The translations under genes were made by a program, and so were the position numbers. A stretch of DNA of 32,000 bases from Horticoccus luteus (GTDB lineage Bacteria; Verrucomicrobiota; Verrucomicrobiia; Opitutales; Opitutaceae), in NCBI RefSeq assembly GCF_019464535.1, contig NZ_CP080507.1, forward strand, positions 300,001 to 332,000, written 5' to 3'. Numbering within the stretch: the stretch's first letter is position 1; every line of letters begins with the position of its first letter. Of the stretch, positions 28,970 to 30,570 are shown in pieces. A model generated the notes under the pieces. The model worked only from the letters and a program-made list of their open reading frames with translations. It was not told the origin of the DNA and made no database searches.

Positions 28970-29311
28970 TCCATGAGAAGGCGTGTCGAGAATAATATAG
29001 AAAAAGGTTCACCTTTTTGGTGGCTCTGGAGGAGGGGCGGCGTTCCCGAACGGTCCGGCTTCCATACGCACTCGTGGTGGCGGCGTCAATGGCCGCGCTG
29101 GTGCAGGGAGGAATCCAAGGTGCTCGAAAAGGGCGGCCCTTCCATGAGAAGGCGTGTCGAGAATAATATAGAAAAAGGTTCACCTTTTTGGTGGCTCTGG
29201 AGGAGGGGCGGCGTTCCCGAACGGTCCGGCTTCCATACGCACTCGTGGTGGCGGCGTCAATGGCCGCGCTGGTGCAGGGAGGAATCCAAGGTGCTCGAAA
29301 AGGGCGGCCCT
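28970..29311. repeat. Perfect tandem direct repeat, 2 x 171 bp (28970..29140 and 29141..29311; identity extends 2 nt further left to 28968)
   Basis: A base-by-base read shows both copies identical, running from tccatgagaaggcgtgtcgagaataatatag... to ...gtgctcgaaaagggcggccct. Each copy has the palindrome AAAAAGG-TTCA-CCTTTTT (29001..29018 and 29172..29189). Each also has AAGGG-CGG-CCCTT at its right edge. Confidence 0.98.
28973..28983 (+). repeat. Inverted-repeat arm ATGAGAAGGCG (3'-end side of the IS; second identical copy at 29144..29154)
   Basis: Exact reverse complement of 30528..30538. Looser similarity continues inward (TGT...ATAAT). Confidence 0.7.
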
Positions 29312-29433
29312 GCATACTGGTTAGCGCGTTGAGCGGTGAGGCTCACGCTGGCGCTAGAGCGCAGTGGCCAAAGGGATCAGACCTGGGTGGGAACGGGCAA
29401 GGGGTTGAGGGTGGTGGTGGCCGGACGGGTGAC

Positions 29434-30507
29434 TCAGGCGGCCTGCGGCAGCGGCTGCGGTTGCGGTTGGGCGTGGTAGTCGGCGCCCGTTTTCCACAGC
29501 GCGAGCAAGGTGACGGCGAGCTTGCGGGCGACGGCGATGACGGCGCGTTTCTTGGCGGATTTGCCGCCGCGCGCGGCGATGCGTTCGCCGGCGGTGCGCA
29601 GCGCGCCCGGCGGACCGAAGGGGCCGAGGATGTAATGCGCGCAGTTGACCAGGAGGCAGCGCATCTGCGCGTGGCCGGCCTTGGTGATGCCGAGTTGCTT
29701 GTCGGTCTGGCCCGATTGGTCGCGGCGGGGCACCAGGCCCAGATACGGCCCGACGGCGCGCGCGTGCGCGAAGTGCGCGGGGTCTTCGATCGTGAGCACA
29801 AAGCACAGGGCGGTGATCAGCCCGACGCCCGGGATCTGGCGCAGGAGAGTGGTCACCGGGTAACGTTCGAGGGCGAGGACTTCGAGTTCGGCGTCGAGGG
29901 CTTTGATCTGCGCGTTGAGTGCGTCGATCGCGGCGAGCAGCGCGGCGACCAGGGAAGCGTCGGTCGGCGCGAGCTGGGCGCGGACTTTGCGGGTGAAGGC
30001 CATGGCTTTGATCGAGGTGGAGACGAAGACTCCGAGGCTTTTCAGCAGGAAGCGCACGGAGTTGATGAGGTTGACACGGCTGCGCACAAGGGCCTCGCGG
30101 ACTTTGAGCCGCACGAGGGCGCGTTGCGTGTCCTCGCTGCGGTGGCGGACCGGGCTGAGCAGCTGCGGGTCGGCGCGGCCCAGGCGCGCGAGCATCCGCG
30201 CGTCCTCGCGGTCGGACTTGGTCTGGCTTTGCGAGATGGCGCGCAGCTTGCGGGCGTTGGCGACGATGACGGGGTGGCCGAGTGTGGTGACGAGACGCGA
30301 GATCCACGGGCTGTGCGTGCCGGTCTCCATCACGATGGTCGCGCCCGGGTAGCGGGCGCTGAACGCGGTCAGCACTTCGCGGGTGTTGACGATCACTTCC
30401 TCGGCGAGGATCTCGCCCGAGGCATCGAGGACGCACGCGTGGTGGCGGCGGTCCCCGAGGTCCAAGCCAACGGTTAGTTTTTCAACAGGAGGGGTTTTGG
30501 TTTTCAT
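29434..30507 (-). CDS. IS110-family transposase/recombinase (DEDD RuvC-like N-domain plus Transposase_20-like C-domain)
   Basis: 357 aa: MKTKTPPVEKLTVGLDLGDRRHHACVL, IVMETGTHS, KSDREDARMLARL, then LLRQIPGVGLITALCF...YLGLVPRRDQSGQTDKQLGITKAGHAQMR...AVIAVARKLAV. ORFs 29188..30477(+) and 29354..30436(-) are overlapping artefacts. Confidence 0.93.
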   Translation of the reverse strand: MKTKTPPVEKLTVGLDLGDRRHHACVLDASGEILAEEVIVNTREVLTAFSARYPGATIVMETGTHSPWISRLVTTLGHPVIVANARKLRAISQSQTKSDREDARMLARLGRADPQLLSPVRHRSEDTQRALVRLKVREALVRSRVNLINSVRFLLKSLGVFVSTSIKAMAFTRKVRAQLAPTDASLVAALLAAIDALNAQIKALDAELEVLALERYPVTTLLRQIPGVGLITALCFVLTIEDPAHFAHARAVGPYLGLVPRRDQSGQTDKQLGITKAGHAQMRCLLVNCAHYILGPFGPPGALRTAGERIAARGGKSAKKRAVIAVARKLAVTLLALWKTGADYHAQPQPQPLPQAA

Positions 30508-30517
30508 ACGGCGGGAG

Positions 30518-30523
30518 ATTATA
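30518..30523 (-). promoter_or_regulatory. Consensus -10 hexamer TATAAT 10 nt upstream of the transposase ATG (implies a leaderless or very short-leader mRNA)
   Basis: The minus strand reads GGGATGAGAAGGCGGGTG-TATAAT-CTCCCGCCGT-ATG. There is no Shine-Dalgarno sequence and no good -35 in the present flank. Confidence 0.35.
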
Positions 30524-30527
30524 CACC

Positions 30528-30538
30528 CGCCTTCTCAT
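30528..30538 (-). repeat. Inverted-repeat arm (CGCCTTCTCAT on the + strand) at the 5' end of the IS110-family element
   Basis: Exact reverse complement of 28973..28983 and 29144..29154. Confidence 0.7.
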
Positions 30539-30570
30539 CCCTACTGGTTGAACCAAGCCGCTGCGCGGCG

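What the first reader, a model, noticed from the sequence alone, without database searches (positions are those of the whole stretch)
28970..30540. IS110-family element with IS1111-type architecture: the long 3' non-coding end is the expected location of a bridge RNA
The recombinase CDS (29434..30507, minus) has clear IS110-family motifs. Its 5' non-coding end is only ~30 nt. About 464 nt without a credible ORF lie 3' of the stop (293 nt if the tandem duplication is collapsed). The 2024 IS621 studies showed that IS110-family recombinases are programmed by a structured bridge RNA encoded in the long non-coding end. As I recall, that end is 5' in the IS110 subgroup and 3' in the IS1111 subgroup. 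This region also has subterminal inverted repeats, several hairpins and short matches to both flanks. No such RNA can be confirmed from one sequence, so this is a candidate only.
Basis: partly seen in the sequence, partly recalled or inferred. Interest (0 to 1): 0.85.

Follow-up and report, generated by a model that had tools for sequence, protein, structure and literature searches.

The report
IS1111-type insertion sequence with bridge RNA
This is a mobile insertion sequence whose long 3' tail encodes a two-loop guide ("bridge") RNA that matches both the element's own ends and the site it inserted into. That is the expected arrangement for this family, so the finding is correct but largely ordinary, apart from a perfect 171-bp duplication of the RNA's donor-binding half.

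Summary
Window 28968..30545 (minus strand) is an IS110-family element of IS1111 type. It has a 357-aa DEDD recombinase (29434..30507), a 36-nt left end, 11-bp subterminal inverted repeats and a 466-nt 3' non-coding end. That end is 295 nt once a perfect 171-bp x2 tandem duplication is collapsed.

Ninety-odd related loci all carry one copy of the 171-bp unit as the terminal part of the element, so the unit is IS DNA, not target DNA.

The 3' end contains two conserved, covarying RNA domains on the recombinase-sense strand:
- A target-binding loop (29300..29375). Its two strands match the right and left flanks.
- A donor-binding loop (29222..29292, duplicated at 29051..29121). Its strands match the element's right and left ends.

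Guide-flank matching is significant by permutation across the family. Empty sites define an AG core dinucleotide. The target is an attC-like repeat in cassette-type arrays of Opitutaceae.

This is a new member of a known kind (IS1111 bridge/seek RNA).

The unusual feature is the duplication. It is absent from every relative examined, and AG sits at all three of its unit boundaries, the outermost one being the IS terminus, which suggests recombinase-mediated recombination. RNA expression and activity remain untested.

The parts
30546..30554 (-). Left target half (GGTTCAACC). It contains an R''-like box, GTTCAAC, of an attC-like site.
   Evidence: Left flanks of relatives are conserved as rGCCnAACC-AG. 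Uninterrupted sites read ...AACC-AG-nCGCC....
30544..30545 (-). Left copy of the AG core dinucleotide.
   Evidence: Occupied and empty sites were compared. AG is present at both IS junctions.
30508..30543 (-). Left end of the IS (36 nt). It includes the subterminal inverted repeat at 30528..30538 and a GGCGGG/CCCGCC hairpin just upstream of the ATG.
29434..30507 (-). IS110-family DEDD/Ser recombinase, 357 aa.
   Evidence: Pfam. NCBIfam NF033542 above its cut-off. Homology to the IS621 transposase 8wt6, E = 1.8e-12, with D99/D102 and S265 aligned to IS621 D102/D105 and S241 (PMC11208158). The GL-P----SG motif is present at GLVPRRDQSG.
29300..29375 (-). Bridge-RNA domain 1, the target-binding loop. 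Outer stem: 29361-70 with 29305-13. 5' loop strand (right-target guide): 29349..29360. Inner hairpin: 29326..29348. 3' loop strand (left-target guide): 29313..29325.
   Evidence: Model R1 scores 96.7 bits. Covariation. Guide-flank matches. Coordinates.
29222..29292 (-). Bridge-RNA domain 2, the donor-binding loop, proximal copy. 5' loop strand AUUCCUCCC lies within 29277..29287. 3' loop strand UAUGGAAG lies within 29057+171 = 29228..29237.
   Evidence: Model R2 scores 91.7 bits. Covariation. Loop strands covary with RE and LE termini.
29172..29189 (-). Conserved A/U-rich hairpin AAAAAGG-UGAA-CCUUUUU, proximal copy. It may be the 3' end or terminator of the RNA.
   Evidence: A compensatory A-U to U-A change occurs in 5 of 15 relatives. 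The terminator scan did not call it.
29139..29154 (-). Internal (proximal) copy of the right end: CGCCTTCTCAT (subterminal repeat) + GGA + AG.
28968..29311 (-). Perfect tandem duplication, 2 x 171 bp. AG is present at all three unit boundaries: GC-AG-[unit]-AG-[unit]-AG-ACGCC.
   Evidence: No second right-end copy follows the recombinase gene in any related locus where the right end was found, and the 96%-identical relative L092 has a single unit.
29051..29121 (-). Donor-binding loop, distal (duplicated) copy.
   Evidence: Model R2 scores 91.7 bits.
28968..28983 (-). Terminal right end of the IS (subterminal repeat 28973..28983, then GGA) plus the right copy of the AG core (28968-69).
   Evidence: All relatives end at ...GCCTTCTCATGGAAG.
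28878..28967 (-). Right part of the attC-like target. It comprises ACGCCAGAGCCAACGG, a variable hairpin region, CCGTGGCTCATC and the R'-like box GTTCGGC (28878..28884). It lies 11 nt upstream of the ATG of ORF 28866..28522.
   Evidence: The same architecture recurs as ORF-site-ORF-site arrays in related loci.

Best explanation
Window 28968..30545 (minus strand) is an IS1111-type member of the IS110 family.

Shown by computation: its right non-coding end encodes a ~154-nt bridge RNA (seekRNA), at 29222..29375, transcribed in the same sense as the recombinase gene. The RNA has two internal-loop domains.

1. The 5' domain is a target-binding loop.
- Its 5' strand (CUCUAGCGCC) is complementary to the top strand of the right target flank plus part of the core (AG-ACGCCAGAG).
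- Its 3' strand (UAACCAGUA) is identical to the left flank plus core (AACC-AG) and to the first two bases of the IS.

2. The 3' domain is a donor-binding loop.
- Its 3' strand (UAUGGAAG) copies the right IS terminus plus core (CATGGA-AG).
- Its 5' strand (AUUCCU) is complementary to bases 2-7 of the left IS terminus (AGGGAT, including one G.U pair).

Inferred from the IS621 and IS1111 literature, not shown here: the element excises as a circle that joins the right and left ends at AG. The recombinase, bound to the RNA, pairs this donor junction with a target carrying AG and exchanges strands at the core.

The target is the R''-proximal end of an attC-like repeat found in cassette-type gene arrays of Opitutaceae.

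The perfect 171-bp duplication copies the donor-binding loop, a conserved hairpin and the right end. It most likely arose by recombination between the right-end AG core and an internal AG, either between sister copies or within a tandem dimer.
For: Recombinase family and catalytic residues.

Architecture (short left end, long right end, 11-bp subterminal repeats). This matches the IS1111 definition in PMC11187229 and PMC11208160.

Conservation: the 3' end is conserved in 15 close relatives and ends at an invariant CTCGACACGCCTTCTCATGGAAG. The terminus is conserved down to 46% protein identity.

Structure:
- RNAalifold predicts two domains.
- Models R1 and R2 find both domains, adjacent and in the same order, in distant relatives.
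- Covariation: 98.2% and 95.2% of cells paired, 9/15 and 7/13 pairs with compensatory changes, 0/500 shuffles reaching the observed values, and collapse when partners are slid.
- G.U cells number 86 against 4 A.C cells, which fixes the transcribed strand.

Guide-target covariation:
- Examples: L077 UAAUCGCCU with AG-GCGATTA; L045 UCAACUCCU with AG-GAGTTGA; L018 AUGUAGCG with CGCTACAG.
- Permutation tests: own right flank 6.82 vs 4.95 +/- 0.14; own left flank 6.21 vs 4.85 +/- 0.13. None of 10,000 permutations reached the observed value, and wrong-strand controls were not significant.

Guide-donor covariation:
- Right-end variants ATAGAAG, ATGAAAG and ATGAGAG are each mirrored in the loop.
- Permutations reaching the observed value: 1/10,000 for the right end and 23/10,000 for the left end.

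Empty sites define the AG core.
Against: - No RNA data exist. Expression, the RNA's 5' and 3' ends and its binding to the recombinase are all inferred.
- No sigma-70-type promoter or canonical terminator was found, and the junction of the two ends would not create a recognisable promoter (and inspection).
- The single-sequence fold is not exceptional (z = -1.38).
- In this copy the right-target guide has two mismatches to the actual flank (A.C at CGCCAGAG, and the +1 base), and the core A is unpaired.
- The outer stem of the donor-binding loop is only 2 bp and is broken in about a quarter of sequences.
- The permutation tests do not remove phylogenetic non-independence.
- Rfam 15 has no matching family, and the published IS110/IS1111 models could not be run.
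Confidence: 0.85

Rival explanations
1. The 3' end is conserved only as DNA, for example as recombinase-binding sites or end sequences. No functional RNA is made, and the apparent structure is a by-product.
For: No promoter or terminator was detected. The most invariant blocks (ATTGACG, GAGTGCGTATGGAAG) never vary, so they say nothing about pairing.
Against: Sixteen helix positions show compensatory double changes. G.U pairs outnumber A.C by 86 to 4, an asymmetry that double-stranded DNA sites would not show. Loop strands covary with flanks in a strand-specific way. Related IS1111 elements have experimentally shown RNAs from this region (PMC11187229).
Confidence: 0.05
2. The 171-bp units are target or host repeat DNA, and the IS really ends near 29312.
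For: The unit is repeated in tandem and abuts the flank.
Against: Every related locus in which the right end could be located has exactly one unit downstream of the recombinase gene, and it ends at the same GCCTTCTCATGGAAG. This holds across different genomes and different flanks. Empty sites lack the unit. The unit carries the right subterminal inverted repeat.
Confidence: 0.01
3. The duplication is not a chromosomal tandem repeat. It could be an assembly representation of junction reads from a circular by-product (a 171-bp minicircle) or a mis-assembly. Alternatively it arose by ordinary replication slippage, unrelated to the recombinase.
For: The two copies are 100% identical. The 96%-identical relative at the same left flank has one unit. 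No other locus shows the duplication. Only 2 bp (AG) of microhomology mark the junctions. Abundant sub-element minicircles are documented for ISPpu9 (PMC12288879).
Against: There is no shared long k-mer between the two junction contexts that could create a graph cycle without real junction reads (inspection coordinates). The outer boundary coincides exactly with the IS terminus and core, which random slippage would hit only about 1 time in 170. Reads are not available.
Confidence: 0.3
4. The long 3' region encodes a small protein (ORF 28887..29315 minus, 142 aa, or 28955..29332 plus, 125 aa) rather than an RNA.
For: These ORFs exist in the six-frame list.
Against: Both ORFs owe their length to the duplication, and their sequences simply repeat. 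Relatives differ in this region by indels whose lengths are not multiples of three. No family was hit.
Confidence: 0.01

Closest known systems
IS1111-group bridge RNAs / seekRNAs (ISEc11, ISKpn4, ISPst6, ISPa11; Siddiquee et al. 2024, PMC11187229; Durrant et al. 2024, PMC11208160)
   Same: - A DEDD/Ser recombinase with the GL-P----SG motif, subterminal inverted repeats, a short left end and a long right end.
- The RNA is encoded downstream of the recombinase gene.
- The segment complementary to the top strand lies 5' of the segment complementary to the bottom strand.
- The sizes fit: the target loop domain is 76 nt against short seekRNAs of 82-96 nt, and the two domains together span 154 nt against the 154-nt long ISEc11 RNA.
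   Different: - The recombinase is at most ~35% identical to any plasmid-borne IS110-family protein.
- The covariance models built here do not detect the 3' ends of the two Klebsiella plasmid IS110-family elements (about 30% identical) that were tested.
- The hosts are Opitutaceae (Verrucomicrobiota).
- The donor loop is a simple internal loop, not the multiloop reported for many IS1111 elements.
- Nothing has been tested experimentally.
IS621 bridge RNA (IS110 group; PMC11208160, PMC11208158)
   Same: - Two internal loops in the order target-binding then donor-binding.
- Each loop reads both strands around a shared core dinucleotide.
- The catalytic residues align.
- The left-target guide extends into donor sequence, reminiscent of handshake guides.
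   Different: - The RNA is in the right end, not the left.
- The core is AG, not CT.
- The subterminal repeats are long.
- No junction promoter is recognisable.
IS1111-attC subgroup (ISPa21, ISPst6, ISKpn4; Tetu & Holmes 2008; Post & Hall 2009; summarised in PMC3001079)
   Same: It inserts site-specifically near the 5' (R'') end of attC-type recombination sites in gene-cassette arrays.
   Different: - This element is oriented in the same sense as the cassette ORFs, whereas the known subgroup is antisense.
- The target arrays are chromosomal and in Opitutaceae.
- Common descent with the subgroup was not tested.
- The neighbouring tyrosine recombinase does not reach the integron-integrase cut-off.
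ISPpu9 modular transposition (PMC12288879)
   Same: A small RNA-bearing module downstream of the recombinase gene is bounded by AG dinucleotides and a copy of the IS right end. Alternative right ends predict alternative circles.
   Different: - The 171-bp unit has no left-end-like (A') box at its 5' boundary.
- No solo units were found in 95 loci.
- ISPpu9 belongs to the IS110 group, and its Ssr9 RNA is not required for transposition.

Membership tests
IS110 family (DEDD recombinase IS) | N-terminal RuvC-like DEDD domain plus a C-terminal Transposase_20 domain | tested here: met
   Pfam PF01548 (4e-21) and PF02371 (5.5e-20). NCBIfam NF033542 scores 216.8 bits against a cut-off of 140.
IS110 family (DEDD recombinase IS) | Catalytic D, E, D, D and the C-terminal Ser (IS621 D11, E60, D102, D105, S241) | tested here: met
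   The alignment to 8wt6 places E61, D99, D102 and S265 opposite the IS621 residues. D16 is invariant in 14 homologues.
IS1111 group | Subterminal inverted repeats of 7-17 bp | tested here: met
   ATGAGAAGGCG is an 11-bp perfect repeat (21 nt at 81%), lying 5 nt inside each end.
IS1111 group | The longer non-coding region lies downstream of the recombinase gene | tested here: met
   36 nt upstream against 295 nt downstream (466 nt with the duplication).
IS1111 group | GL-P----S(t)G motif in the C-terminal domain (PMC11187229) | tested here: met
   GLVPRRDQSG at residues 257-266, invariant in the 14 aligned homologues.
IS1111 group | Phylogenetic placement with IS1111 itself | not tested
   No tree with ISfinder references was built.
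Bridge RNA / seekRNA | A structured RNA with a loop whose two strands pair with opposite strands of the target around the core | tested here: met
Bridge RNA / seekRNA | A second loop complementary to the donor, that is, the right-end/left-end junction | tested here: met
   The signal is strong for the right-end strand and weaker for the left-end strand.
Bridge RNA / seekRNA | The RNA is expressed, binds the recombinase and is required for transposition | not testable with these tools
   No transcript or biochemical data are available.
Bridge RNA / seekRNA | A match to the published IS110/IS1111 covariance models | not testable with these tools
   Those models are not available here. Rfam 15 gave no hit.
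IS1111-attC subgroup | The target is an integron attC site, with insertion near its 5' end | tested here: inconclusive
   The target has R''/R'-type boxes (GCCsAAC ... GTTnGGC), an imperfect palindrome with a variable centre, and an ORF-site-ORF-site array context. No attC model was run, and no bona fide IntI was found.
IS1111-attC subgroup | Antisense orientation relative to cassette transcription (PMC3001079) | tested here: not met
   The recombinase gene and the downstream cassette-like ORFs are co-directional in the window and in L001, L003, L006, L007 and L014.
Integron integrase (neighbouring gene 30655..31620) | A score above the curated IntI family cut-off | tested here: not met
   TIGR02249 scores 160.3 against 265, and PRK15417 scores 114 against 435. 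The protein is closer to XerA and XerD structures than to IntI4.
ISPpu9-type modular sub-element | The sub-element is flanked by its own left-end-like and right-end-like boxes | tested here: not met
   The unit has the right end but starts with GGCCGCCC, which does not resemble the left end TAGGGATGAG.

The most novel reading that the evidence does not exclude
The perfect 171-bp duplication may be a footprint of the bridge recombinase acting on a non-canonical internal AG site. If so, the donor-binding loop, hairpin and right end form a recombinase-less module that can be excised or re-inserted as a 171-bp circle. The element would then have two alternative right ends, predicting circles of 1405, 1576 and 171 bp and a solo module left behind in the attC-like site. 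This would be an IS1111-group counterpart of ISPpu9 modular transposition.
Probability: 0.2. Interest if true: 0.55.

Novelty: new member of a known kind. Interest (0 to 1): 0.36.

Why it matters
- It adds a well-resolved, naturally diversified bridge-RNA family from Verrucomicrobiota. Target and donor guides can be read directly from about 90 loci, which is useful for learning guide rules (AG core, unpaired +1 position, guide lengths) in the less-studied IS1111 branch.
- It suggests that attC-type cassette arrays outside Proteobacteria are also hit by RNA-guided insertion sequences, here in the sense orientation.
- The duplication offers a testable hint that these recombinases can rearrange their own RNA-encoding end.
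- None of this changes the current picture of IS110/IS1111 biology.

Tried and rejected
- Rfam 15, searched at E <= 10 on the region and at gathering thresholds on the whole window, gave only noise hits.
- Exact-protein look-up found the protein is not on record.
- A viral-contig scan for the right-end 23-mer gave 0 hits.
- The sigma-70 promoter and terminator scan found nothing relevant. By inspection, joining the right and left ends does not create a -35/-10 pair, and the TATAAT in the left end is not conserved in relatives (TATAGT, TATGAT) because it sits in a hairpin loop.
- The single-sequence fold z-score is unremarkable.
- Models R1 and R2 run on Klebsiella plasmid IS110-family elements gave no credible hit, so the models are clade-specific.
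- I looked for a left-end-like box at the start of the 171-bp unit, and for convincing target- or donor-like sequence at the internal AG site. Only partial similarity was found (CGCC displaced by 2 nt), so RNA-guided recognition of that site is not supported.
- I looked for solo units or other duplications in 95 loci and found none. The extra R2 hit in L038 belongs to a second, different IS lying immediately upstream.
- The neighbouring recombinase was considered as an integron integrase but falls below the curated cut-offs.
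Full report
**1. What is in the sequence**

The minus-strand ORF 29434..30507 (357 aa) carries the two Pfam domains of IS110-family recombinases. It scores 216.8 bits on NCBIfam NF033542, 'IS110 family RNA-guided transposase', against a cut-off of 140. It is homologous to the solved IS621 transposase (8wt6, E = 1.8e-12). 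The Asp pair and the nucleophilic Ser of IS621 (D102, D105, S241; PMC11208158) align with D99, D102 and S265. The IS1111-type motif GL-P----SG (PMC11187229) is present as GLVPRRDQSG and is invariant in 14 homologues.

Tandem Repeats Finder reports 28968..29311 as two perfect copies of a 171-bp unit. An 11-bp perfect inverted repeat, ATGAGAAGGCG, occurs once near the start codon (30528..30538) and once in each 171-bp unit (28973, 29144).

**2. True ends, core and target**

I collected 11 genome loci, all from Opitutaceae/Verrucomicrobiota MAGs except one binned as Lysobacterales. I also collected 80 metagenome loci at 46-86% protein identity and two contigs of close relatives.

In every locus where the downstream region is present, the element ends with GCCTTCTCATGGAAG. 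The left repeat ATGAGAAGGC sits 5 nt inside the other end.

Close relatives have similar flanks: rGCCnAACC-AG on the left and nCGCCAGAGCCAAyG on the right. Uninterrupted copies of this site lie in the flanks of several loci. An example is GCCGAACC-AG-TCGCCCGAGCCAACG in L006.

Comparing occupied and empty sites gives a two-base core, AG, present at both junctions. In the window the IS proper is 28970..30543, with AG at 28968-69 and 30544-45. That makes it 1574 bp, or about 1403 bp without the duplication. This agrees with the many ~1.4-kb contigs that carry homologues.

The target is not a generic repeat. In L003 it recurs after each of four small co-oriented ORFs. Each copy starts a few bases after the stop codon with GCCsAwC, continues as an imperfect palindrome with a variable centre, and ends with GTTnGGC about 5-10 nt before the next ATG. 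This is the layout of attC sites in gene-cassette arrays (R'' RYYYAAC ... R' GTTRRRY; established knowledge). The IS sits between the R''-like box and the left arm.

In the window the site is split by the IS: GTTCAAC at 30547-53, and the rest at 28878..28967. It precedes ORF 28866..28522. A tyrosine recombinase gene (30655..31620) lies 110 bp away and diverges from the IS. Its best NCBIfam match is the integron-integrase subfamily, but far below the cut-off (160 vs 265). It is closer to XerA and XerD than to IntI4. I therefore call the target 'attC-like' and do not claim an integron.

**3. The 3' end encodes a two-domain structured RNA**

The 295-nt region after the stop codon aligns well in 15 close relatives, starting about 45 nt after the stop. 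RNAalifold predicts two domains.

I built one covariance model per domain (R1 and R2). In the window:
- R1 hits once, at 29300..29375, with 96.7 bits.
- R2 hits twice, at 29222..29292 and 29051..29121, with 91.7 bits each.

Both models also hit the 46-53%-identity relatives. There the R1 hit always lies immediately 5' of the R2 hit.

| Measure | Domain 1 | Domain 2 |
|---|---|---|
| Distinct sequences | 40 | 74 |
| Cells forming a standard pair | 98.2% | 95.2% |
| Pairs with compensatory double changes | 9 of 15 | 7 of 13 |
| Shuffles reaching the observed values | 0 of 500 | 0 of 500 |

Sliding the partners by one to three columns collapses the pairing. These alignments were fitted to the models, which inflates the paired percentage. 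The compensatory changes are nonetheless visible in the structure-blind MAFFT alignment, for example GCGU/ACGC to GCAU/AUGC and AAAAAGG/CCUUUUU to AAAAUGG/CCAUUUU.

G.U cells outnumber A.C cells 86 to 4. The structure therefore belongs to the recombinase-sense strand, as expected for an RNA and not for a DNA site.

**4. The loops read the target and the donor**

Domain 1 consists of a stem, a large internal loop and a hairpin.
- In the window, the 5' loop strand (29349..29360, GCUCUAGCGCCA) is complementary to the right flank read on the top strand (AG-ACGCCAGAG). Eight of eleven positions pair, including the core G.
- The 3' loop strand (29313..29325, GCUAACCAGUAUG) contains AACCAGUA. This is identical to left flank AACC + core AG + the first two IS bases TA.

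Across relatives these strands change together with the flanks:
- L077: UAAUCGCCU with AG-GCGATTA.
- L045: UCAACUCCU with AG-GAGTTGA.
- L044: UAGGUCCU with AG-GACCTA.
- L018: AUGUAGCG with CGCTACAG.
- Left strands UAAUCAG, UUACCAG and UAACCAG match left flanks TAATC-AG, TTACC-AG and nAACC-AG.

I ran an alignment-free test using the longest exact match between each element's domain-1 region and its own flank, compared with the flanks of other elements over 10,000 permutations.

| Flank tested | Own | Permuted | Permutations reaching observed |
|---|---|---|---|
| Right flank | 6.82 | 4.95 +/- 0.14 | 0 |
| Left flank | 6.21 | 4.85 +/- 0.13 | 0 |
| Wrong-strand controls | - | - | not significant |

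Domain 2 is an internal loop around a conserved stem (UGCACC/GAGUGCG).
- Its 3' strand, UAUGGAAG, copies the right terminus CATGGA-AG. Rare terminus variants (ATAGA-AG, ATGAA-AG, ATGAG-AG) are each mirrored in the loop. The own-versus-permuted score is 6.60 vs 5.14 +/- 0.27, reached in 1 of 10,000 permutations.
- Its 5' strand is complementary to bases 2-7 of the left terminus: AUUCCU with AGGAAT, CCCA with TGGG, CCUA with TAGG. This signal is weaker but present (23 of 10,000).

This is the pattern defined for bridge RNAs, in which each loop pairs with opposite strands on either side of a shared core (PMC11208160, PMC11208158). The order, with the top-strand match 5' of the bottom-strand match, is the one reported for IS1111 seekRNAs (PMC11187229). 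The extension of the left-target strand into donor sequence may be a handshake-type contact. That is an inference only.

**5. How it most likely works**

*Shown by computation:* the family, the ends, the core, a conserved and covarying two-loop RNA gene, and complementarity of its loops to target and donor.

*Inferred from characterised relatives:* the element excises as a circle joined at AG. The RNA is made from or with the recombinase transcript and is bound by the recombinase. The target-binding loop selects AACC-AG-nCGCCAGAG in attC-like sites, and strand exchange occurs at the core.

*Unresolved:* the promoter. None was found, and the junction of the two ends does not create one. The RNA's 3' end is also unresolved. 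A conserved A/U-rich hairpin at 29172..29189, with one compensatory change, is a candidate.

**6. The duplication**

No other locus has a second right-end copy downstream of the recombinase gene. The closest relative, L092, is 96% identical and shares the window's left flank. It has a single unit followed by GGAAG|GCGCTA. The duplication is therefore private and recent, since its copies are identical.

Its boundaries read GC-AG-[169 bp]-AG-[169 bp]-AG-ACGCC. One breakpoint is exactly the IS terminus and core. The other is an internal AG in the 3' strand of the outer stem of the target-binding loop.

The exact coincidence with the cleavage site argues for recombinase involvement. Candidate routes are unequal exchange between sister copies, resolution of a tandem dimer, or re-insertion of a 171-bp circle. 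However, the internal site shows no convincing guide complementarity and has no left-end-like box, unlike the ISPpu9 modules (PMC12288879). An assembly representation of circle-junction reads, or simple slippage, cannot be excluded without reads.

The target-binding loop is intact. The element now has two donor-binding loops and two right ends.

**7. Comparison and verdict**

The element meets every sequence-level criterion of the IS110 family and the IS1111 group that I could test. Its RNA meets the structural and complementarity criteria of bridge/seek RNAs. Expression and activity are untested.

It resembles the IS1111-attC subgroup in where it inserts but differs in orientation. Here the element is in the same sense as the cassette ORFs, whereas PMC3001079 describes the subgroup as antisense. 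Common ancestry with that subgroup was not examined.

The recombinase is at most ~35% identical to plasmid-borne relatives, and my models do not detect their 3' ends. This is therefore a distinct clade.

Durrant et al. predicted bridge RNAs in 93% of IS1111 elements, so this is a new member of a known kind and of modest interest. The duplication is a small, testable oddity.

Noticed in passing
L003:850-2450; also L006:370-480, L007:5740-5830, L014:3010-3060, L017:255-400, L093:1650-1760: Opitutaceae contigs carry arrays of small co-oriented ORFs. Each ORF is followed by a ~60-150-bp imperfect palindrome that starts GCCsAwC-CAG-nCGCCAGAGCCAAyG and ends CrTGGCTCAyCTTGAAC-GTTnGGC just before the next ATG. 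This looks like attC sites of chromosomal cassette arrays. L093 also has Mrr-like and GNAT ORFs downstream.
   Followed up: partly
window 30655..31620 (+): A tyrosine recombinase gene lies 110 bp from the IS left end and diverges from the IS and the cassette-like ORF. Its best NCBIfam hit is integron integrase, but well below the cut-off (160 vs 265), and it is closer to XerA and XerD structures than to IntI4.
   Followed up: partly
window 28436..28490 (-): A second, different attC-like site lies about 30 nt after the stop codon of ORF 28866..28522. It reads GCCGAAC, 5 nt, a 14-bp hairpin (GCGTTCTGCTGCGC/GCGCGCAGCGGGACGC), then GTTGAAC. It does not match this IS's guides.
   Followed up: no
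window 30520..30530 and 30578..30588: An 11-nt perfect inverted repeat (TATACACCCGC / GCGGGTGTATA) links the IS left end to the flank 47 nt outside it. The flank copy may be a remnant of an inverted left end. L092 has a diverged version at the same place.
   Followed up: partly
L092:1-1524: The closest relative (96% nt identity, Logan assembly of SRR26671187) shares the window's left flank, which suggests the same insertion site in a related strain. It has a single 171-bp unit, and its right flank begins GCGCTA, which would pair perfectly with the right-target guide CUCUAGCG, unlike the window's ACGCCA.
   Followed up: partly
L038:1-470; L029:620 and 1930; L018:85-101; L009: Several loci hold two IS1111-type copies close together. 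In L038 a different IS (recombinase 3' end, its own donor-binding loop with LDG AACAGAAG) ends exactly where the L038 element's left end begins. L029 has two left ends 1310 bp apart.
   Followed up: no
window 30508..30530 (-): The left end folds as GGCGGG-loop-CCCGCC directly upstream of the ATG. The loop reads UGUAUAAUCU here but varies in relatives (TATAGT, TATGAT), so the TATAAT is probably not a promoter element. It may be a translational control hairpin.
   Followed up: no
window 29238..29262 and 29067..29091 (-): Within the donor-binding domain the invariant string ATTGACG-N17-TATGGA resembles a weak -35/-10 pair. The strict scan did not call it, and the same bases form the loop and stem of the RNA.
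   Followed up: no
window 27300..27908 (+): The translation of this ORF contains YD/RHS-repeat-like sequence (YDEEGNL..., RYLYAGWELVAE...). This suggests that the large plus-strand ORFs to the left belong to an RHS-type toxin locus. It was not checked with any tool.
   Followed up: no
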